Positions 38,919-59,441 of a DNA stretch of 64,000 nt are shown one piece after another. The stretch's first letter is position 1; each line of letters starts with the position of its first letter. The DNA is from Vulcanimicrobiota bacterium (GTDB lineage Bacteria; Vulcanimicrobiota; Vulcanimicrobiia; Vulcanimicrobiales; Vulcanimicrobiaceae). Position numbers and translations under genes: made by a program. The stretch covers positions 480,001 to 544,000 of the forward strand of contig CAWCIZ010000003.1 in the NCBI GenBank assembly GCA_963795855.1, given 5' to 3'. The notes beneath the pieces are model-generated. The model did not search any database. It saw only the letters and a list, made by a program, of their open reading frames with translations, and was not told the DNA's origin.

Positions 38919-41831
38919 ATGCTCAGACGTCGGCTCGACGGTTTATTTGATGCTGCCCAAACTCGGTCATGGCTCGCCGTCATTCTGATTGCCGGGCTGG
39001 TGCTGCGTGTAGCGTTCGTTCGAAGCCAAGGCTTCGCTACGGACGCCGGCGATTTTTCGACTTGGGCCGTATCGCTCGCGAGTCATCATCTCGCAAATTT
39101 CTACGCCTCGACGTCGTTTGCGGATTATCCGCCTGGATACTTATACGTGCTCTGGACGATCGGCGAGCTTTATGCGGCGCTCGCGCCTCACGGCAACCCC
39201 GAGCTGCTTGCCATTCTCGTCAAGTCGCCGGCGATATTGATGGACTTCATCGACGGTGCGCTGCTATTCGTGCTCGTCCGTCGCATCGCGGGCGACCTCT
39301 GGGCGATAATCGTCTGCGCGGCTTTCACGCTGAATCCGGCGGTGATTTTCATTTCGGCGGTGTGGGGACAGGTCGATTCGGTTGCGCTCGCCTTCGTCCT
39401 CGTAGCGATAATCGCTCAGTTACGGACGACCGACGGTGGAAAGGGAGTGCTCCGCGATACGGTCATCGCGTGGTTTGCCCTTTCGTGCTCGATTCTCATC
39501 AAGCCGCAAGCCGTGTGTTTGGCGCCGCTTTTTCTGGCAGCGGCTTTGTGCGCGAAGACCGGCTTGCGCACACGAATACTGGCGCCGGTGCTCGGCATAG
39601 CCTCCGGAGTAGTTTCGGCATACGTCATCGCGTTGCCGTTTCATCCAACCGCCGACCCGTTGAATGTGCTGTCGTGGCTGTACCACCAGTACGAAACCGG
39701 CAGCCGCGTATATCCGTACAATTCCGTCAACGCATTCAATTTGTGGACCGTCTTGCATCCGTTCTGGCAACGCGACCTGCAGCAAATCGGGCCGATTCCG
39801 CAGTACGCGTGGGGTATAGTTCTGGTCTGCGCAGCAGTTGTGCTCGTGGTATTTCGCTATGCGCAGCAACGGACGGAGCGTGCTTTCATCGAGGCCGCCG
39901 CACTCATCGGCCTGGCGTTCTTCATGCTCGCTACGCGCATGCACGAGCGCTATATTTATGACGGCCTGGTTCTGGCGATGTGCGCGATGCCGTTCGCGCG
40001 GCGGTACGTCGCCGGTGCCGCGACGTTTTCGATCACGCTGCTCGTGAATCTGTTCTACTCGCTGCGGTATCTGAGCGTGGTTACGCACGGTGTCGCCGGC
40101 GTGAATCAGACGGATATGTGGGGCGCCGCCGATCATCTCATATCACTCGTCAACGTCGGCGTGTTCTTCTGGCTTGCGTACACGTTTCTGGGGGAGGAGC
40201 ACGTGCAATCACGCGCCGCACGACCGGCAAAGCGCGCACGCGGCCGTACTGCGGCCGGGAGCAGCGTAGGCTTCGATGCCAACGAGGGCCGTGCCGGTCT
40301 CGCTTGGCCGATCGATTACGTCGTCTGCGCTGCCCTCACCACGGCTTCATTCGTCATCTTGTACGTGCGCTTTTGGTTTCCGCCCGGGAAAATTTTCGAC
40401 GAGGTGTATTTCGCGCGCGCGGCGGAGGAGTACTTGCACCGGCAGTACATCTACGAAAACACGCATCCGCCGGTTACGAAACTGCTCATTACGCTTTCGA
40501 CGCTGATGTTCGGCGACAATTCGTACGGCTGGCGTTTCTTGGACGTGGTTTTCGGCGCCGCGGCAATCTGGCTGCTTTACGCCCTGCTGAAACGAGTTAC
40601 GGGCTCGACGTTGTTTTCGGCTTACGGCGCGGGGCTTTTTATGTTCGACGGCATGCATTTCGTGCAGTCTCGGATCGCAACGCCGGAAAGTTTCGTCGTG
40701 GTGTTCGCGCTGCTCACCGTCTATACGTTCTATCGCTGGTGGATTGCTTCGCAAGTACCCTCGGAACACGACCCCGGCACGAGGCCGGTTGTTTTGCGCG
40801 CGATCGGAGCGGGCTGTGCGTGCGTGCTCGGCGTAGCGGCTACGCAGGTGCGATTTCCGCACGAATCGGCGCCGGCGAAAGCGATTGTGGCGGCATGCCT
40901 CATTGCGGGACTGTACCTGGTTTCGTGCTTTGTCATAGGGCCGCGCAAACGAACCACCGCCGGTTTATGGCTTACGCTGTTCGCATTTTCAATAGCGCTT
41001 CTCGTCGCGAGCAAGTGGTACGGCGTGATGGCGTTCGGCGTCGCCTTCACGATCGTGTTCGGCCTGTGGCTGCAACCGAAGGCCGGAGCGGCGCTGCAGC
41101 GGCTCACTGGTGCGGCGGCCGGGCCTTCGCGGTGGGGTAACCCGAATATCGCGATCGACGCCATTGTCGCTACAATCGTGTTTGTTGTGGTTACCGTGTA
41201 TTTTGCCGCGTACATCCCGCAGTTCGTCGGGCTTTCAGACACCCCGGGTGCGCCGCCTCGGGCGTACACGGTGACCGACGTCGTCAATATGCAATACGCA
41301 GCATTCGAATATCACGACCACCTCGTCGCGACGCATCCATACCAGTCGCGATGGTGGCAGTGGCCGCTCGATCTGCGTCCGATTCTGTACTATTCGGAGT
41401 ACGGCGGCCGCGGCGCGACAGCTACGGCCGCGATGATCTACACGCTTGCGAATCCGCTGATTTTGTGGCTTGGCCTGCTCACCGTTCCGCTCGTCGCATA
41501 TCTCGGCTTGCGGGAACGAAGCAAAGGTTATGTGCTGATCGCGCTCACGTACGTCGCGCAGTGGCTGCCGTGGATGGGTTCGCCGCGAATTTCATTCGCG
41601 TACCATTTCTACGTGGATATACCGCTGATCTGCGCCTGCACCGCGATCGTAATGCAACGCTGGTGGATTCTCTGGCGCGACACGGGTCAGGCATCGGCCG
41701 GCAAATGGCTGATCGGCGGGTATTTCGGGGCCGCAACGCTGGCGTTTGTCTACTTCTATCCGATCTTGTCCGGGCTGACGATTCCTTCCGCCGCGTGGAT
41801 GCAGCGGATGTGGCTTCACAGCTGGATATAG
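38919..41831 (+). CDS. Double GT-C glycosyltransferase: ALG6/GT87-like module fused to a PMT (GT39) protein O-mannosyltransferase module
   Basis: N-half: ADYPP, NPA..SAVWGQVDS, IKPQ, RMHERY. C-half: IFDEVYF, THPP, QSRIAT, ASKW, HPYQSRWWQWP. Confidence 0.85.
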   Translation: MLRRRLDGLFDAAQTRSWLAVILIAGLVLRVAFVRSQGFATDAGDFSTWAVSLASHHLANFYASTSFADYPPGYLYVLWTIGELYAALAPHGNPELLAILVKSPAILMDFIDGALLFVLVRRIAGDLWAIIVCAAFTLNPAVIFISAVWGQVDSVALAFVLVAIIAQLRTTDGGKGVLRDTVIAWFALSCSILIKPQAVCLAPLFLAAALCAKTGLRTRILAPVLGIASGVVSAYVIALPFHPTADPLNVLSWLYHQYETGSRVYPYNSVNAFNLWTVLHPFWQRDLQQIGPIPQYAWGIVLVCAAVVLVVFRYAQQRTERAFIEAAALIGLAFFMLATRMHERYIYDGLVLAMCAMPFARRYVAGAATFSITLLVNLFYSLRYLSVVTHGVAGVNQTDMWGAADHLISLVNVGVFFWLAYTFLGEEHVQSRAARPAKRARGRTAAGSSVGFDANEGRAGLAWPIDYVVCAALTTASFVILYVRFWFPPGKIFDEVYFARAAEEYLHRQYIYENTHPPVTKLLITLSTLMFGDNSYGWRFLDVVFGAAAIWLLYALLKRVTGSTLFSAYGAGLFMFDGMHFVQSRIATPESFVVVFALLTVYTFYRWWIASQVPSEHDPGTRPVVLRAIGAGCACVLGVAATQVRFPHESAPAKAIVAACLIAGLYLVSCFVIGPRKRTTAGLWLTLFAFSIALLVASKWYGVMAFGVAFTIVFGLWLQPKAGAALQRLTGAAAGPSRWGNPNIAIDAIVATIVFVVVTVYFAAYIPQFVGLSDTPGAPPRAYTVTDVVNMQYAAFEYHDHLVATHPYQSRWWQWPLDLRPILYYSEYGGRGATATAAMIYTLANPLILWLGLLTVPLVAYLGLRERSKGYVLIALTYVAQWLPWMGSPRISFAYHFYVDIPLICACTAIVMQRWWILWRDTGQASAGKWLIGGYFGAATLAFVYFYPILSGLTIPSAAWMQRMWLHSWI

Positions 41832-46977: not shown

Positions 46978-48444
46978 ATGGAGCATCAGGTGGGCGTATC
47001 GCTGGAGACATTGCTGCGAACGCTCGCTCAGAATACGCGCGTCGTCGGCCCGCGCGACAAAACGGTGACGGCAATAACGATCGATTCGCGTGAGGCGAAG
47101 AGCGGCGCGTTGTTCGTTGCGCTGCGCGGCGAACATACGGATGGGCACCGGTTTATCGCGGACGCGGTGGCGCGCGGTTGTGAAGCCGTCGTGATGGAAG
47201 ACGCCGCCGAAGTTCCCGCTCACGTTGCGGCCGTCATCGTACCGGATTCCGCTCGAGCCGTTTCACAGCTCGCCGACGCATTCTTCGGGTCGCCGTCGCG
47301 CGCTTTGAGCGTTGCGGGCATCACCGGAACGAACGGCAAAACGACGACCGCTCACATGACCACCGCGATCATGAATGCCGGCGGCGTTCCCGCAGGAACG
47401 ATCGGCACAATCGGCGCGCGCTTCGGCGAGACGGAATGGCCGCTCGCGAATACGACACCGCTTGCCGTGCAGCTTCAGGAACTGCTGGCGCGTATGCGCG
47501 AATCCGGCGCAAAAGGCGTCGCGATGGAGGTCAGTTCGCACGCGCTCGCGCTGCAGCGCGTGGCCGACGTGCACTTCAGCGTCGCAGCGCTTACGAACGT
47601 GACGCGCGATCACTTGGATTTTCACAAGACCTTCGACGCGTACGCGTCGGCGAAGCGTCGTTTGTTCGAAATGGCTCCGCGCTGCGTGCTGAACGTCGAC
47701 GACCACTGCGGCGAACGCTGGATGCGCGAACTGCGCGTTCGTAAGCCGGTTCTCTCGTACGGCATTGCGGCGCCTGCGGACGTGCGCGCGCAATCTACCG
47801 ACGTGCGCGCCGACGGCAGCAGCTTCGAGGTCGATGGTCAGCGCTTCGAGGTGCGACTCCCCGGCCGCTTCAACGTCTCGAACGCGCTGTGCGCAATCGG
47901 TATTGCGCGCCACCTCACAATTTCGGACAAGGACAGCGCGCGCGGCCTGGCTTCGCTCGAACGCGTCCCGGGGCGCATGGAACACGTGCGCGGCGGCGGC
48001 GTCGACGTCATCGTCGACTACGCGCATACGCCCGACGCACTCGAAAATTTGCTTCGGACGCTTCGGGAAACGGCTCGCGGCCGTTTACTGCTCGTGTTCG
48101 GATGCGGCGGAGATCGCGACCGCGGAAAACGCCCCGAAATGGGCGGCATCGCCGCGCGCTATGCGGATTTTTCGTACATCACGTCCGACAATCCGCGCAC
48201 GGAAGACCCGCAGTCGATCATCGCCGACATTTTGCCGGGCATCGCCGGCGCGCCGCATGAAGCGAACGCGGATCGTCGCGCGGCGATCGAGGCGGCCGTC
48301 GCAAATGCGCAGCCCGGCGACGTCGTCGCAATCGCGGGTAAAGGCCATGAGGCGTATCAAATCGTCGGCTCGCACGTTCTGCCTTTTGACGATTTGGCCG
48401 TTGCTCGCCAAGCGCTGTCGCGCCGCGAGGCAATGCACCGATGA
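46978..48444 (+). CDS. murE: UDP-MurNAc-dipeptide:meso-DAP ligase
   Basis: GITGTNGKTT, MEVSSH, DHLDFH, DYAHTPD, DNPR (DAP-type), AGKGHE. Confidence 0.96.
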   Translation: MEHQVGVSLETLLRTLAQNTRVVGPRDKTVTAITIDSREAKSGALFVALRGEHTDGHRFIADAVARGCEAVVMEDAAEVPAHVAAVIVPDSARAVSQLADAFFGSPSRALSVAGITGTNGKTTTAHMTTAIMNAGGVPAGTIGTIGARFGETEWPLANTTPLAVQLQELLARMRESGAKGVAMEVSSHALALQRVADVHFSVAALTNVTRDHLDFHKTFDAYASAKRRLFEMAPRCVLNVDDHCGERWMRELRVRKPVLSYGIAAPADVRAQSTDVRADGSSFEVDGQRFEVRLPGRFNVSNALCAIGIARHLTISDKDSARGLASLERVPGRMEHVRGGGVDVIVDYAHTPDALENLLRTLRETARGRLLLVFGCGGDRDRGKRPEMGGIAARYADFSYITSDNPRTEDPQSIIADILPGIAGAPHEANADRRAAIEAAVANAQPGDVVAIAGKGHEAYQIVGSHVLPFDDLAVARQALSRREAMHR

Positions 48445-49799
48445 AACTGGCGCTCGAACGCGCCGCGGGCGCAACGGGGGCGCAAGTGCTGCGCGCACAG
48501 GATTTTCCGCCGGAACTGCGGGTCGTTACGGACACGCGTCAGTTGCAGCAAGGCGATACGTTTCTCGCGCTGCGCGGCGAGCGATTCGACGGCCATGCGT
48601 TTCTGAAGGACGCGCTGCTGGGCGGCGCGGCGGCTCTGGTCGTCGACGACGCTGCCGCAGTGCCGCACGATGCGCCCGCGCTCGTCGTGCGCGACACGAA
48701 GCGCGCGTTCATGGATCTCGCGCGCGCGGCGCGCGAAGCGTACACCGGCCGGGTCGTCGGCATTACCGGAAGTGCCGGAAAGACGACCACGAAACATTTT
48801 TTAGCGCAGCTCTTAGCCGCGTGGTTCGGCGCGGATCGGGTTCTCGCTTCGCCGGCGAACGAGAACAACGAAGTCGGCGTAAGCAAATTGCTGCTCGCGT
48901 GTTCCCCCGAACACGAGGTGCTCGTCATCGAGATGGGCGCGCGGCATGAAGGCGAGATTGCCGAACTCGTACAGGTGGCGATGCCGCACGTCGGCGTGCT
49001 GACGAACATCGGCGAAGCGCATTTAGAGATTTTCGGTTCGCGGGAACGGCTCGCGCGAACGAAGTGGGGCCTGTTTTCGCAAGGCGCGCAAGCGGTGCTC
49101 AATGCCGAAGATTCGGAATCCGCTTTACGCGCGCCGGCGTTGGAGTCGGCGCCGTTTTGGTTCGGAACCGGCGAACCGCGCCTGCCCGGCGTGTGGATCG
49201 TGGACGCCGCGACGCTCGCGATAACGAACGGCGATACGCAGCGCGTGAGCATCGACGTGCGGTTGCCGGGACGGCACAATTACCGCAACCTTGCTGCGGC
49301 GTGTGCCGCAGCGCTGCTGTTAGGCGTATCGCCGGAACGGGTCGCGCAAACGATCCCGGCACTCACGTTGCCCGCGGGACGCTATCAGAAGATCGCCGTC
49401 GACGGAAAGCCGCTCTTCATTTACGATGCCTACAACGCAAACGTAAGCGGCATGTCGGCCGCGCTCGACGCGTTTGCATGCGAGCGTGCGTCCCGGCGCA
49501 TTGCCGTACTTGCAAGCATGGCCGAGCTCGGAAACGATGCGGCCGCCATGCACGAACGCGTCGGCGCGCACGCGGCCAAAAGCGGTATCGATGTGCTGCT
49601 CGTCGGCGGCGACTTCGCGCAGTGCATGGCGCAGGGCGCAATGGCGGGCGGTTTACCGCGCAATCGTATCGTGCCGTTTGCCGATAACCGGTATGCGGCG
49701 GATTGGCTGCGCGAAAACGCGCGTCCGGACGATGCGGTCTTGTTCAAGGGTTCCCGAAAATATCAAATGGAGGAAATCATCGAGGACTTGCTCGCGTGA
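48441..49799 (+). CDS. murF: UDP-MurNAc-tripeptide:D-Ala-D-Ala ligase
   Basis: GITGSAGKTTTK, NENNEVG, EMGARH, DAYNAN, KGSR. Confidence 0.95.
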   Translation: MKLALERAAGATGAQVLRAQDFPPELRVVTDTRQLQQGDTFLALRGERFDGHAFLKDALLGGAAALVVDDAAAVPHDAPALVVRDTKRAFMDLARAAREAYTGRVVGITGSAGKTTTKHFLAQLLAAWFGADRVLASPANENNEVGVSKLLLACSPEHEVLVIEMGARHEGEIAELVQVAMPHVGVLTNIGEAHLEIFGSRERLARTKWGLFSQGAQAVLNAEDSESALRAPALESAPFWFGTGEPRLPGVWIVDAATLAITNGDTQRVSIDVRLPGRHNYRNLAAACAAALLLGVSPERVAQTIPALTLPAGRYQKIAVDGKPLFIYDAYNANVSGMSAALDAFACERASRRIAVLASMAELGNDAAAMHERVGAHAAKSGIDVLLVGGDFAQCMAQGAMAGGLPRNRIVPFADNRYAADWLRENARPDDAVLFKGSRKYQMEEIIEDLLA

Positions 49800-50500
49800 G
49801 GAGCTTGCGCATCGAACGTCCGGAACTGCCGTCCGGCATCGTCGGAATTCCGGTGCGTACGCCGCTCGTGCACCCCGGCGACGATCTGATCGGGCTGATA
49901 CAGCGCGCGGTCGACGGCATCGCGCGGCCCGGCGACGTTTTGGCGATCTCCGAAACCGCCGTCGCGATCGCACAAGGCCAAGCCGTCGGCGCAGAGTACG
50001 TGCGTCCGTCGAAGATCGCGTACGCGCTTTCTCGCCGTGCGGGCGCGTTAGCCACCGTCAGCCAGCCGGAGTCGCTGCAGATCGTGATCGACAAAGTCGG
50101 AAGGTGGAAAGTGTTGTACGCGGCTGCGATGCAGGTGCTCGGGCGCCTCGCCGGCCGCCGCGGCGCGTTCTATGAGATTCTGGGTGAGGCGATTACCGCG
50201 ATAGACGGATACACCGGCACGCTGCCGCCGTTCGAGCGCGCCATAGTCTTTGCGCCCGCGAACCCCGATGCGTTTTCGCAATCGGTTTACGATCGCTGCG
50301 GCATCGCATGTGCGATCGTCGATGCCAATGACTTGGAGAAGGCGAAGGTTCTAGGCGCGTCTTCAGGCGTGAGCCGCGAAAACATAGAGCGCGCGCTCCT
50401 TTCAAACCCCCACGGCAACGGCGACGAACAGACGCCGATCGTCGTGTTGAAGTGGCGAGCCGACGGGCCGAATCCGCTGGTCGCGGAGCCCGGCTCATGA
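49796..50500 (+). CDS. CofE-like (F420-0:gamma-glutamyl ligase family) protein
   Basis: PVRTPLVHPGDDL..PGDVLAISETAVAIAQG, AIDG, AIVDANDL, NPHGNGDEQTPIV; 4-nt overlaps with murF and mraY. Confidence 0.78.
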   Translation: MRSLRIERPELPSGIVGIPVRTPLVHPGDDLIGLIQRAVDGIARPGDVLAISETAVAIAQGQAVGAEYVRPSKIAYALSRRAGALATVSQPESLQIVIDKVGRWKVLYAAAMQVLGRLAGRRGAFYEILGEAITAIDGYTGTLPPFERAIVFAPANPDAFSQSVYDRCGIACAIVDANDLEKAKVLGASSGVSRENIERALLSNPHGNGDEQTPIVVLKWRADGPNPLVAEPGS

Positions 50501-51456
50501 ATTACGGATACGAACTCGCCGTCGTCGCCGCCGGATTCCTGATTGCTGGGCTGTCCGGCGCGGCCATGCTGCCGTTGCTCGCGCGCTTGCAGTTCCGGCA
50601 GCGCGCGTACGAAGACGCTCCACGGTCGCATCAAAAGAAAACCGGAACGCCGACGATGGGCGGCGTAGTTTTCGTCATCGCTCTGCTCCCAATGCTCGCT
50701 TTCGTTCACGATCCCGTCATGGTCGCGACCGTGCTCCTCGTAGCGCTGTGCGCGGCAATCGGTTTTGCGGACGACCTCATCGCCATTCGCCGGGGAAAGA
50801 ACGCCGGCTTACGCGCGCGCACGAAGTATCTCCTTACCGCGCTCGTAACAGTGATCTACCTGTGGTGGATCGTTCGCTCGCCGGCGGTGCCCGTCGACGT
50901 CATCTTTCACATGAGCGGCTACGCACTCGGCGTTCCGCATTGGCTTTGGCTGCTGCTCGGGATTTTCGCCGTAACCGGGACGATTCACGCGGTGAATTTG
51001 ACCGATGGGCTGGACGGCTTGGTCTCCGGCACCATCGTACCGCCGCTGGTCGTGCTCGGCGCTCTCGCGTGGCGAGACGGATCCGCGCCGGCAAATATTG
51101 CGGCGCTTCTCGGCGTCGGCGCGTGCTTCGGCTTTTTGGTGTACAATCGCCACCCGGCGAAATTGTTCATGGGCGACACGGGATCGCTCGCGCTTGGGGC
51201 GCTGCTTTCCGGCGTTGCAATTCTTACCGGCGAGATGCTGCTGCTCGTGCTGATCGGCGGTGTATTCGTCGCGGAAGCGCTTTCGGTAATCATTCAAGTT
51301 ACGTACTTCAAACGCACGGGCGGCAAGCGGATTTTCCGCATGAGCCCGCTGCATCATCATTTCGAACTGTCCGGCTGGCCGGAAACGACCGTTACGACGC
51401 GCTTCTGGCTGGCTTCCGTCATTCTCTCCGGCTTGGGGTTGGCTATCGTCAGATGA
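50497..51456 (+). CDS. mraY: Phospho-N-acetylmuramoyl-pentapeptide transferase
   Basis: KKTGTPTMGG, GFADD, NLTDGLDGL, FMGDTGS, PLHHHFEL. Confidence 0.97.
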   Translation: MNYGYELAVVAAGFLIAGLSGAAMLPLLARLQFRQRAYEDAPRSHQKKTGTPTMGGVVFVIALLPMLAFVHDPVMVATVLLVALCAAIGFADDLIAIRRGKNAGLRARTKYLLTALVTVIYLWWIVRSPAVPVDVIFHMSGYALGVPHWLWLLLGIFAVTGTIHAVNLTDGLDGLVSGTIVPPLVVLGALAWRDGSAPANIAALLGVGACFGFLVYNRHPAKLFMGDTGSLALGALLSGVAILTGEMLLLVLIGGVFVAEALSVIIQVTYFKRTGGKRIFRMSPLHHHFELSGWPETTVTTRFWLASVILSGLGLAIVR

Positions 51457-54022: not shown

Positions 54023-55060
54023 ATGGAAGTTGCCGGCGGCGTGACGGCCGACCTCGTGCGATTGGGAAGCTTTTGCACGCGCATGGGCTCGCCGTTCTTC
54101 GCGGCGATTCTTCGGCATGCGGCGGGTGCGTATGAGGACGATTCCGTCGTGCGCGCGCTACTCGACCGGCACGCCGGCCGATCCCGGCTGGGCTTGCGTT
54201 TGGGAGGTGCGGCGCACTACCGCGCGCTGCGCGGCGAAGCGCCGGCAATCGCCGCGCACTATCCGTCGACGAACGGCGATGGCGATGCGGACGCGGCGTG
54301 GGACGCGATCGTTCTCGATATTCGTGCAAACGTCGCGCGATACGACGAGCTGTTCGCACGTAACGTGCAGACGAACGAAGTGGCGCGCTCCACGCCGATC
54401 GTGGCGGCGTTGCTGGCGATCGCGGACGCTGCGCGGTTGCCGCTGCGAATTTTCGAGATCGGTTCGAGCGCCGGGCTCGTACTGAACTTCGATCGCTATT
54501 TCTACAGCGGTCCCGGGTGGAGCTGGGGTGCCGAGGGCTCGCAGCTGCATCTGCACAACGCGACGAAGTCCGGCACGCCGGGCCATCTCGATGCACCGCT
54601 CCAGGTCGCAGAGCGGCGCGGTTGTGATTTGCATCCGCTGAACGCGGCGGATGCCGGCGACGCCGATACGCTTCTGGGATTCATTTGGCCCGATCAGCGG
54701 GAACGTTTCGACCGGCTTCGCGCCGCCCTTTCGATCGCGCGGTCCTATCCTCCGGCGATTGCGCAGGCCGACGGAATCGCCTGGGCGCGTTCGAGCGCGC
54801 AGCCGCGCGCCGGCGCGCTTACCGTGCTGCTGAACACCGTCGTGACCGAGCATATGAATGCGGACGTGCTTGAACGCTTACATGGCGCCATCGCCGAGAT
54901 TGGCGCGCAAGCTACGGCCGCGGCGCCGTTTGCATGGGTGCGGATGGAGCTCGCCGAACGCGCATACGAAACGCGTTTTACGCTGTGGCCCGGCGAGAAG
55001 TGCGAGTCGATCGCAAAGTCCGACGGGCATGCGCAAAACCTGGAGTGGAGCGGCGCGTGA
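54023..55060 (+). CDS. DUF2332 family protein
   Basis: VQTNEVARS, FEIGSSAGL, RRGCDLHPL, FIWPDQRERFDRL. Confidence 0.82.
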   Translation: MEVAGGVTADLVRLGSFCTRMGSPFFAAILRHAAGAYEDDSVVRALLDRHAGRSRLGLRLGGAAHYRALRGEAPAIAAHYPSTNGDGDADAAWDAIVLDIRANVARYDELFARNVQTNEVARSTPIVAALLAIADAARLPLRIFEIGSSAGLVLNFDRYFYSGPGWSWGAEGSQLHLHNATKSGTPGHLDAPLQVAERRGCDLHPLNAADAGDADTLLGFIWPDQRERFDRLRAALSIARSYPPAIAQADGIAWARSSAQPRAGALTVLLNTVVTEHMNADVLERLHGAIAEIGAQATAAAPFAWVRMELAERAYETRFTLWPGEKCESIAKSDGHAQNLEWSGA

Positions 55061-57548: not shown

Positions 57549-58498
57549 GCGTCGCCGACGAGGCGCTTCACAGCGTTCTGCGGGCCGACGATCGCGCGCG
57601 GCTGCTCGAGATTTGCGGCGAACGGGTACGGTTCGACGAACCGCTCGCGCCGTATACATCGTGGAAGATCGGCGGACCGGCCGACGCGTGGATCGTCGTC
57701 GAAAGCGAAGCGCAGCTCGCAGAAATCATGCAGTTTTGCGGCAAGCGCCACGTGCCGTGGTTCGTACTGGGCAGCGGCAGCAATCTGCTCGTCGGCGACG
57801 GCGGAATACGCGGTTTGGTTTTGCGCCTCTCCGGCGAATTTGCGAACATCGTCGTTACGCACGACGATCGAACGGTGATCGTTCACGCGGGCGCTTCCGC
57901 CGGCATGGCATTGCTCACCGCAAAAGCCGCCTCGGCCGGCGCCGCCGGCATCGCCTCGCTGGCTGGAATCCCGGGAAGCGTCGGCGGTTCGCTGCGCATG
58001 AACGCCGGCACCGATCGCGAGATGGGCGATTTCGTGCGCGAAGTTTGGGTGCAGTCGCCGGCCAAGCCGCAGCCGCATCCGGTAACCGTGCAGTATTACT
58101 ATCGTCACACTTCGCTCGCGCGCGACGCAATCGTCGCTCGCGTAACGCTGAAATTCGAGCTCGGCGATTCGCAACTGATCCGCGAGGAGATGCAGCACCG
58201 GCTCGTGCGGCGCAAGAACACGCAGCCCATCGCGTTGCCCAACGCGGGTTCGTGCTTTCGCAATCCGGAGGGCGACAAGGCGGCACGGCTCATCGAAGCG
58301 GCGGGAGCTAAGGGATGGCGGGAGGGCGGCGCGGAAGTGTCACCGCTGCACGCCAACTTCATCAACAACCTCGGCGGTGCAACCGCCAAGGACGTTGCCA
58401 CGCTGCTGGCGCGCGTTCGCCGCACCGTTCTGGAACGGTTCGGTGTCGAATTGCAGCTCGAAGTGCACCTCGTCGGCGTCTTTATAGATGTAGAATGA
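57545..58498 (+). CDS. murB: UDP-N-acetylenolpyruvylglucosamine reductase
   Basis: [38 protein letters not shown]. Confidence 0.95.
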
Positions 58499-59441
58499 CA
58501 GCAAGAAGAAAAGCAAAAGTAGCCGTCGTGATGGGCGGCACGAGCGCGGAACGCGAGATTTCGATTCAAACCGGAACCGGTGTCGTGCGCGCGGTTCAGG
58601 AATTGGGATACGACGCGCAGTCGCTCGATTACGACACGCGGTTCATCGATGCGATTCGCGACCTCAGCCCCGACGCCGTTTTCATCGCGCTGCACGGCCC
58701 AGGCGGCGAAGACGGGCAAATTCAGGCCATTCTTGACTACTTGGCGATTCCGTACACCGGAAGCGGTATCGAAGCGTGCGCGCTCGCGATGGACAAGCAC
58801 CTCACGAAAAGCTTTGCGCCGCCGAAGGCTTGCCGACCGCCGCGTGGGACTTATTCGATCTCTCGGGAGGTACGCTGCCGCTGCTTCCGGGATCGCTCGA
58901 CCTGCCGCTGGTCATCAAACCGCGGTTCGAGGGCAGCAGCGCCGGCGTGACGATCGTCCGCACGCACGAGCAGTGGACGCAAGCGATGATCGACGCCGCG
59001 GAAGAGTACACGGAGATTCTCGCCGAGGAGTTCGTGCCGGGACGCGAGTTCACGTGCGGCGTGCTCGGGGAAGAAGCGCTGCCGATCGTCGAAATCGTGC
59101 CGAACCGCGACGAATTTTACACCTACGAAGCCAAATACGGCGCCGGCGGAAGCACGCACATCGTGCCCGCGCGAATCGACGACGATTTGGCGGCGCGCCT
59201 GCAAATGCTGGCGCTCTCGGTGCACCGGCTCGTGGGTCTGCGCGACTATTCGCGCACCGATTTTATCGTAAGCAAAGAAGGCCGCCCGTACATTTTGGAG
59301 ATCAACACACTGCCGGGCCTAACGCCCACGAGCATCCTGCCCGACGCGTGCGCTGCGGTCGGCATTTCGTATCAGGCGCTTGTGGACCGCCTTCTCGGTT
59401 ACGCCCTGGCCAGAGCGGGCGAACGGGTTCTCGCCCGGTAG
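58495..59441 (+). CDS. ddl: D-alanine--D-alanine ligase; frameshift near 58808
   Basis: [41 protein letters not shown]. Confidence 0.95.

What the first reader, a model, noticed from the sequence alone, without database searches (positions are those of the whole stretch)
49796..50500. CofE-like ligase translationally coupled between murF and mraY
Seen: a 234-aa gene with GTGA and ATGA overlaps on both sides, splitting the normally adjacent murF-mraY pair. No F420 pathway genes occur in the window. Established: CofE is a GTP-dependent amide ligase that adds Glu to a carboxylate; MurF makes the pentapeptide precursor that MraY consumes. Inference: this protein may be an unrecognised ligase that modifies the peptidoglycan precursor, for example adding an amino acid or amine to a D-Glu or meso-DAP carboxyl, or it may act on another envelope substrate.
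Basis: partly seen in the sequence, partly recalled or inferred. Interest (0 to 1): 0.75.

Follow-up and report, generated by a model that had tools for sequence, protein, structure and literature searches.

The report
Candidate cell-wall polyamine ligase
A conserved gene inside a soil bacterium's cell-wall operon encodes an enzyme shaped like a cofactor-building ligase that almost certainly works on the cell wall instead, and it is a good but untested candidate for the enzyme that fixes small amines (polyamines) onto the wall's building block, a reaction known from gut bacteria and algal plastids.

Summary
Observation confirmed: a real 234-aa gene with 4-nt overlaps to murF and mraY, CofE fold (Z 14.9). 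It is not an F420 or folate enzyme: CofD in 0 of 81 genomes of its class, folC present. mraY follows it in 54 of 54 class loci and MurF is fused to it in 5. Relatives are single-copy in 150 of 151 Negativicutes (usually behind murI), are fused to wall amidases, and occur in bryophytes, ferns and a conifer that keep plastid peptidoglycan. Of 54 loci of its subgroup in other Bacillota, 27 lie beside an Arg/Lys/Orn decarboxylase (0 of 46 for the sister subgroup). Negativicutes carry polyamines on the D-Glu alpha-carboxyl of peptidoglycan. Best reading: an NTP-dependent ligase joining a polyamine to that carboxyl on lipid I/II (0.55 for this protein; about 0.85 for some wall-precursor ligation). 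Against: no enzymology; this lineage lacks one subgroup Asp; cyanobacteria have it without reported polyamine walls; MurT co-occurs in 30 of 53 other Bacillota. The scan found this gene before in four other genomes; the polyamine link was not in the notes returned.

The parts
48441..49799 (+). murF, 452 aa; makes UDP-MurNAc-pentapeptide; fused in frame to the CofE-like domain in 5 related genomes
   Evidence: TIGR01143 362 bits; fusions L050, L051, L269-L271 and P0124
49782..49786 (+). GAGGA ribosome-binding-site-like sequence inside the end of murF, 9 nt before the GTG
   Evidence: sequence
49796..50500 (+). CofE-fold amide ligase gene, 234 aa (subgroup with NPxGN motif)
49796..49799 (+). GTGA overlap: start of the ligase with stop of murF
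   Evidence: NTGA-type junction in most of the 47 unfused relatives
49877..49978 (+). residues 28-61 (GDD ... GD..(S/A)E..(A)I.QG), the stretch shared with CofE; D47 is 98-100% conserved and kept in canonical CofE; CofE's SKAEG lysine is replaced by Ile58
50102..50158 (+). residues 103-121: helix with no acidic residues, about 3 Lys/Arg and 75% hydrophobic or Gly across 243 family members; candidate membrane-binding helix, not seen in this form in canonical CofE
   Evidence: helix H103-118; composition; role inferred
50201..50209 (+). IDG (136-138): D137 conserved in 96-99%; position 138 is Asp in 93% of the subgroup (100% of Negativicutes) but Gly in this lineage
50321..50332 (+). DAND (176-179); D176/N178 align with the D and N of IITDTN in A. 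fulgidus CofE (metal-site role recalled)
50405..50437 (+). NPHGNGDEQTP (204-214), the most conserved family motif; N208 marks subgroup I, Q subgroup II
50497..51456 (+). mraY, 319 aa; makes lipid I; its ATG overlaps the ligase stop (ATGA)
   Evidence: TIGR00445 274 bits

Best explanation
The protein is a cytoplasmic, membrane-associated, NTP/metal-dependent amide ligase of the CofE fold that modifies the peptidoglycan precursor. It activates the free alpha-carboxyl of D-Glu at stem position 2, probably on lipid I or lipid II, as an acyl phosphate and joins it to the amine of a polyamine (agmatine, putrescine, cadaverine or spermidine) made by an Arg/Lys/Orn decarboxylase. The family would thus supply the gene for the polyamine substitution known from Negativicutes walls. 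Shown here: gene, fold, conserved acidic motifs, gene context, distribution. Established elsewhere: CofE acyl-phosphate chemistry; polyamine on the D-Glu alpha-carboxyl in Negativicutes. Inferred: substrate, amine, nucleotide, membrane stage, and that this organism's wall carries the modification.
For: (1) CofE fold, full length (Foldseek 2phn E 2e-10; VIA Z 14.9, rmsd 3.2, 185 aligned, next Z 4.7); CofE activates a carboxylate with GTP and adds an amine (PMC10861534). (2) Wall context in separate lineages: between murF and mraY or fused to MurF; murI within 1.2 kb upstream in 47 of 80 Negativicutes loci; fused to Amidase_3 in 6 and to AsnB-type amidotransferase in 4 of 50 scanned relatives; an amidase within 4 kb in 38 of 54 subgroup I loci. 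(3) Amine donor: a pyruvoyl Arg decarboxylase (16) or PLP Orn/Lys/Arg decarboxylase (11) within 4 kb in 27 of 54 subgroup I loci, 8 of them 0-37 bp downstream on the same strand, against 0 of 46 subgroup II loci (families confirmed on 6 examples); two unrelated decarboxylase families in about 7 arrangements on separate branches. (4) Found in 150 of 151 Negativicutes genomes, including records named S. ruminantium, S. sputigena, A. lipolyticus, Megasphaera; this class carries polyamines on that carboxyl (PMC5020339; PMC10628300). (5) The rival user of that carboxyl, MurT, was found in 0 of 151 Negativicutes and 0 of 151 genomes of this phylum. (6) Named plant relatives are liverworts, mosses, a lycophyte, ferns, Cryptomeria and streptophyte algae, with no named angiosperm among the 120 best, matching the full plastid Mur set (PMC12681378; PMC10784329). 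(7) A membrane-stage putrescine substitution of D-Glu is reported for Cyanophora (PMC3266927); most relatives have an N-terminal membrane-anchored LEA-2-like partner, fused or adjacent (79 of 80 Negativicutes loci). (8) This class encodes the PLP decarboxylase in 57 of 61 genomes.
Against: No activity or wall analysis exists for this phylum. The window's protein is only 36% identical to the S. ruminantium one, is not its sister on a tree with a weak backbone, and has Gly138 where Negativicutes and all 27 decarboxylase-linked proteins have Asp; it may use another amine. No decarboxylase lies beside it in this phylum's loci. Cyanobacteria have subgroup I proteins, yet their outer-membrane tether is reported to use pyruvylated polymer, not cadaverine (bioRxiv 2021.05.31.446380); this phylum too has CsaB-type pyruvyltransferase in 58 of 61 genomes, and no SLH domain was found in the own genome. 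MurT, which amidates the same carboxyl, is present in 30 of 53 subgroup I genomes outside Negativicutes, 16 of the 27 with a decarboxylase neighbour; overall the two genes are independent (34 together, 38 expected). The subgroup I/II contrast is one phylogenetic contrast. The murI-rph-rdgB cluster is old (recalled), so murI adjacency counts once. No Cyanophora protein appeared in the two 120-row lists.
Confidence: 0.55

Rival explanations
1. Peptidoglycan-precursor amide ligase of the same type, but in this lineage the amine is not a polyamine (an amino acid such as Gly, Lys, Orn or Glu, or ammonia) or the carboxyl is that of meso-DAP; it may act on the soluble UDP-MurNAc-pentapeptide handed on by MurF.
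For: All wall-context evidence holds. Fusion and coupling to MurF and loss of the membrane-anchored partner in this class (no partner match in the own genome). Gly138 shared with subgroup II. Subgroup II is fused to AsnB-type amidotransferases and rarely co-occurs with MurT (2 of 43), so the family has more than one chemistry.
Against: The protein shares subgroup I residues at positions 54, 87-88, 141-147 and 208; the other class of the same phylum has the Asp-Asp form; moss UDP-linked precursors were reported as ordinary DAP-pentapeptides (PMC9434261), which favours a lipid stage.
Confidence: 0.28
2. Envelope enzyme that acts on something other than the stem peptide precursor, such as a secondary wall polymer, recycled muropeptides or spore-cortex intermediates.
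For: Frequent pairing with cytoplasmic-looking amidases and SpoVB/MurJ-like flippases (38 and 17 of 100 loci); CsaB is near-universal in the phylum and lies about 3 kb from the gene in G070; co-occurrence with MurT.
Against: Fusion to MurF; retention in plants tracks the Mur set; universal in mostly non-sporulating Negativicutes.
Confidence: 0.09
3. Non-envelope passenger in the operon, for example a ligase for a cofactor or a polyamine-storage conjugate.
For: The dcw operon tolerates insertions (DUF2332 between ftsW and murG in this window, absent there in L304 and L305). In the other class of the phylum the gene is not in the dcw cluster (0 of 16 loci; ddl adjacent in 1).
Against: Separate associations with MurF, MraY, MurI, amidases and AsnB; plant distribution.
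Confidence: 0.05
4. F420-0:glutamate ligase (CofE) or folylpolyglutamate synthase (FolC2, like Chlamydia CT611).
For: Database names and PF01996 hit; a CofE homologue replaces FolC in Chlamydia (PMC1971073).
Against: CofD in 0 of 81 class genomes and 0 of 151 Negativicutes; where CofD occurs in the phylum a separate canonical CofE sits beside it (4 of 6 fetched cofD regions); far below equivalog cut-offs; folC is present in a folC-folP-folB-folK operon, in two pieces in this assembly.
Confidence: 0.03

Closest known systems
CofE / FbiB N-terminal domain, F420-0:gamma-glutamyl ligase (PF01996, TIGR01916; PDB 2PHN, 2G9I, 7ULD)
   Same: Fold (Z 14.9, 185 aligned, 26% identity); GDD and GD motifs, D176/N178; presumably acyl-phosphate amide ligation.
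   Different: No F420 pathway; SKAEG lysine replaced; added hydrophobic-basic helix; C-terminal part shorter and of other sequence; linked to wall genes and decarboxylases.
FolC2 (Chlamydia CT611, COG1478)
   Same: Precedent for a CofE homologue repurposed to another carboxylate (PMC1971073 passages).
   Different: CT611 clusters with folate genes in genomes lacking folC; here folC is present and no folate gene is adjacent in this class. Sequence not compared.
Polyamine substitution of D-Glu in Negativicutes and N-acetylputrescine substitution in Cyanophora (the 'lipid intermediate:diamine transferase' activity; name and ATP need recalled)
   Same: Amide on the D-Glu alpha-carboxyl; membrane stage; the family is found in 150 of 151 Negativicutes.
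   Different: Known as chemistry and membrane activity; I found no paper naming its gene. The family also occurs where no such modification is reported.
MurT/GatD lipid II amidotransferase
   Same: ATP-dependent amide formation on the same D-Glu alpha-carboxyl at the lipid stage (PMC3266927 passages).
   Different: Mur-ligase fold with glutaminase partner and ammonia as amine; not found in this phylum or in Negativicutes.

Membership tests
CofE fold superfamily (PF01996) | Pfam score over gathering cut-off | tested here: met
   48.4 bits against 25, residues 20-101
CofE fold superfamily (PF01996) | Full-length structural match to CofE | tested here: met
   model pLDDT 92.9; Foldseek E 2.4e-10; Z 14.9, rmsd 3.2, 185 aligned
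CofE F420-0:glutamate ligase (equivalog) | TIGR01916 / PRK13293 score over cut-off | tested here: not met
   30.1 of 180.65 and 32.9 of 274 bits
CofE F420-0:glutamate ligase (equivalog) | Co-occurrence with CofC, CofD, CofG | tested here: not met
   own genome 86% complete, but 0 of 81 further class genomes have CofD
CofE F420-0:glutamate ligase (equivalog) | SKAEG lysine and other canonical motif residues | tested here: not met
   Ile58 in place of Lys in 90% of subgroup I; compared with 4 canonical CofE from cofD loci; the lysine's role is recalled
FolC2 (CT611-like) | folC missing and clustering with folate genes | tested here: not met
   folC TIGR01499 over cut-off in a fol operon elsewhere
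Peptidoglycan D-Glu:polyamine ligase (proposed) | Present throughout organisms with polyamine-substituted walls | tested here: met
   150 of 151 Negativicutes; Cyanophora not seen in two capped lists, so untested there
Peptidoglycan D-Glu:polyamine ligase (proposed) | Genomic link to wall genes and to polyamine synthesis | tested here: met
   the decarboxylase link is in other Bacillota, not in this phylum
Peptidoglycan D-Glu:polyamine ligase (proposed) | Absent where MurT/GatD occupies the same carboxyl | tested here: inconclusive
   met in this phylum and Negativicutes; not met in 30 of 53 other subgroup I genomes
Peptidoglycan D-Glu:polyamine ligase (proposed) | NTP-dependent transfer of polyamine to lipid I/II; loss of substituted muropeptides in a mutant | not testable with these tools
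   needs enzymology and muropeptide LC-MS

The most novel reading that the evidence does not exclude
This family is the gene behind polyamine-substituted peptidoglycan, and the modification is not a Negativicutes oddity but an old trait of many Terrabacteria (this phylum, cyanobacteria, many thermophilic Bacillota) that was inherited by plastids and is still made around the chloroplasts of mosses, ferns and conifers; a derived subgroup (NPxGQ, often with AsnB) performs a second, MurT-replacing chemistry on the same carboxyl.
Probability: 0.4. Interest if true: 0.92.

Novelty: new variant of a known kind. Interest (0 to 1): 0.8.

Why it matters
Polyamine on the D-Glu of peptidoglycan is what the OmpM tether of Negativicutes binds to hold the outer membrane, a point in the debate on how two-membrane bacteria lost their outer membrane, and I found no paper naming the enzyme. 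A single-copy candidate makes that directly testable in Veillonella, and predicts an unreported wall modification in an uncultured-rich soil phylum, in cyanobacteria and in plastid peptidoglycan of mosses, ferns and conifers. It would be the first CofE-fold enzyme acting on the cell wall, and thousands of 'F420-0:glutamyl ligase' annotations would be wrong.

Tried and rejected
F420 role: rejected. The PF01933 hit is YvcK-type by its place beside rapZ and lack of a TIGR01819 match. FolC2 role: rejected. Apparent fusions to MraY in P0200, P0233, P0250 and P0264 were not counted: those printed read as frameshifted run-throughs. Long open frames in family f1 genomes are not MurF fusions. Mutual exclusion with MurT as a general rule: not supported. 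An OmpM/SLH partner in the own genome: none found; SLH in 29 of 71 family and 104 of 151 phylum genomes. No plasmid match. Two alignments were too divergent for the genome-collection scan, so a single Sporomusa protein was used and the 80 named loci are Negativicutes-biased. No cyanobacterial gene neighbourhoods could be read. No complex prediction was run, as no binding claim is made. Ten literature searches returned no paper tying a CofE-like protein to peptidoglycan; the primary Selenomonas, Veillonella and Cyanophora enzymology papers and the 2007 CofE structure paper were not held, and subscription journals are mostly outside the library.

Full report
Observation. The ORF is as described: 49796-50500 (+), 234 aa, GTG overlapping the murF stop and TGA overlapping the mraY start, with a GAGGA 9 nt upstream and the same codon-position GC as its neighbours. 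murF and mraY pass their curated cut-offs. Close homologues carry the name Ca. Baltobacteraceae, which places the window in Vulcanimicrobiota (Eremiobacterota). The gene was found in 60 of 61 nearby genomes and 149 of 151 across the phylum (one of these, G123, is only a weak hit to a canonical CofE). In 54 loci from the window's class mraY followed it in 54; murF was separate upstream in 47, fused in frame in 5 (all family f3), not seen in 2. It is more conserved than MurF in 51 of 51 and than MraY in 48 of 51 loci. Four unpublished genomes (G025, G027, G034, G035) are among these loci and six among the relatives; no claim depends on them and none of the fusions comes from them.

Fold. Sequence similarity to CofE covers only residues 20-101, but a confident model (pLDDT 92.9) matches A. 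fulgidus CofE and nothing else (Foldseek E 2e-10; Z 14.9, rmsd 3.2, 185 aligned, next Z 4.7). CofE phosphorylates a substrate carboxylate with GTP on two metals and then adds an amine (PMC10861534, parts 2-3 of 6 read). Conserved across 239 family rows are T22, D47, E53, Q60, D137, D176, N178, D179 and NPxG(N/Q)..TP; D176/N178 align with CofE's ITDTN. CofE's SKAEG lysine is replaced. Residues 103-121 form a helix with almost no acidic residues, about 3 basic ones and 75% hydrophobic or Gly over 243 rows; I read it as a membrane-binding helix (inference).

Not F420, not folate. The genome (86% complete) shows no CofC, no CofG over cut-off and no CofD. CofD was found in 0 of 81 other class genomes and 0 of 151 Negativicutes. 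Where the phylum has CofD, a separate canonical CofE lay beside it in 4 of 6 regions fetched, three of them in genomes that also hold this family. A CofE homologue does replace FolC in Chlamydia (PMC1971073 passages), but here folC sits in a fol operon elsewhere.

Link to the wall. Of 50 relatives scanned (picked for length or as representatives from 150 listed), 1 is fused to MurF, 6 to N-acetylmuramoyl-L-alanine amidase, 4 to AsnB-type amidotransferase, 1 to a GNAT, 9 to TPRs. In the phylum's other class, in cyanobacteria and in plants the domain follows an N-terminal membrane or targeting segment and a LEA-2-like domain; in Negativicutes that part is the gene directly upstream (79 of 80 loci), with glutamate racemase murI within 1.2 kb in 47 of 80 (75 had enough upstream DNA). 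With the Marchantia protein as query, the named land-plant hits among the best 120 were liverworts, mosses, Diphasiastrum, Adiantum, Ceratopteris and Cryptomeria, followed by streptophyte algae and cyanobacteria; no angiosperm was named (most rows have no name). Cryptomeria, mosses and liverworts have the full Mur set and no angiosperm is known to (PMC12681378 passages; PMC10784329 parts 1-2 of 3, which lists a few exceptions). I put some wall-precursor ligation at about 0.85.

Which amine. The family is in 150 of 151 Negativicutes genomes (names include S. ruminantium, S. sputigena, A. lipolyticus, Megasphaera, Sporomusa). That class carries cadaverine or putrescine on the alpha-carboxyl of stem D-Glu, which the OmpM tether binds (PMC5020339, PMC10628300, bioRxiv 2021.05.31.446380; passages). 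In Cyanophora the like substitution happens at the membrane, best on lipid II (cited in PMC3266927). That the Selenomonas activity needs ATP and has no assigned gene is recalled; ten searches found no paper assigning it. Among 301 Bacillota genomes 112 had the family. I read 100 of the 112 full-length non-Negativicutes loci (12 left out, mostly on short contigs or second copies; six were picked for a nearby murT). Split by motif, subgroup I (NPxGN, 54 loci, as in the window and Negativicutes) had an Arg/Lys/Orn decarboxylase within 4 kb in 27, subgroup II (NPxGQ, 46 loci) in 0; amidases 38 against 2. The decarboxylases are of two unrelated families (PF01862, PF01276) in about seven arrangements on separate branches, eight of them directly downstream. 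The I/II contrast is a single split on the tree, so the repeated arrangements, not the P value, carry the weight. MurT, the known modifier of the same carboxyl, was found in 0 of 151 Negativicutes and 0 of 151 genomes of this phylum. The window's class has a PLP decarboxylase in 57 of 61 genomes, and the own genome an arginase/agmatinase-family gene and a spermidine synthase.

Against. The window's protein is 36% identical to the S. ruminantium one, branches apart from it on a FastTree with a weak backbone (247 rows, 210 columns), and has Gly138 where Negativicutes and all decarboxylase-linked proteins have Asp. No decarboxylase is adjacent in this phylum. Cyanobacteria have subgroup I proteins, yet their tether is reported to bind pyruvylated polymer; CsaB-type genes are in 58 of 61 genomes of this phylum, and the own genome shows no SLH domain, so an OmpM-polyamine role cannot be carried over. 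MurT co-occurs in 30 of 53 subgroup I genomes outside Negativicutes, which needs partial or stage-specific substitution. Moss UDP-linked precursors are reported unmodified (PMC9434261 passages), which fits only a lipid-stage reaction. Cyanophora was not seen in two capped lists. Supplements were not consulted.

Verdict. A real, core, mis-annotated gene: CofE fold, not CofE. It works like CofE in chemistry (inferred) and like MurT/GatD in target (inferred). Best reading, a polyamine:D-Glu ligase on lipid-linked precursor, 0.55 for this protein (higher, about 0.75, for the Negativicutes orthologue); another amine or carboxyl 0.28; other envelope substrate 0.09; passenger 0.05; F420 or folate 0.03. 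The scan reported this murF-mraY gene before in four other genomes; word searches for the polyamine link returned nothing. Interest 0.8 because it turns an orphan wall modification into a one-gene experiment.

Noticed in passing
window 54023-55060 (+): DUF2332 gene inserted between ftsW and murG; ftsW and murG are adjacent in L304 and L305, so it looks lineage-specific.
   Followed up: partly
window 58315-59441; G000:C6:85091-86421; G000:C3:229120-229955: ddl, folC and an arginase/agmatinase-family gene each lie in two frames; probably indel errors of the assembly.
   Followed up: no
window 38919-41831 (+): 970-aa membrane protein with PMT-type glycosyltransferase domains behind an ECF sigma factor and a small anti-sigma-like gene.
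   Followed up: no
G000:C3:425738-426844: 369-aa protein matching only the C-terminal end of the roughly 930-aa SLH-barrel (OmpM-like) proteins of relatives, at the same place upstream of the same neighbour genes, without an SLH domain; SLH was found in only 29 of 71 family genomes.
   Followed up: partly
L057-L123 (36 of 80 loci) and L169-L174: A hydantoinase/oxoprolinase-like gene and a histone-deacetylase-family gene lie near the ligase both in Sporomusa-type genomes and, divergently, in another Bacillota group; possibly acetyl-polyamine handling.
   Followed up: partly
L295:2604-4247, L296:2580-4136, L297:1549-3126, L298:769-2310: A third CofE-related family of about 520 aa in Bacillota with a large inserted region, only weakly hit by this family's profile.
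   Followed up: no
L190, L193, L195, L198, L216, L268: Subgroup II genes next to BlaI/BlaR1-type or VanR-like regulators and a D,D-carboxypeptidase, and rarely with MurT (2 of 43 genomes): perhaps a wall-stress-induced modification.
   Followed up: partly
L169-L173: murJ-murT-gatD operon 2-9 kb from an amidase plus subgroup I ligase pair.
   Followed up: partly
P0139, P0296-P0298, P0386: Chlorophyte relatives in Tetraselmis, Pycnococcus, Pseudoscourfieldia and Chloropicon; only Chloropicon was checked against the literature as a likely keeper of plastid peptidoglycan.
   Followed up: partly
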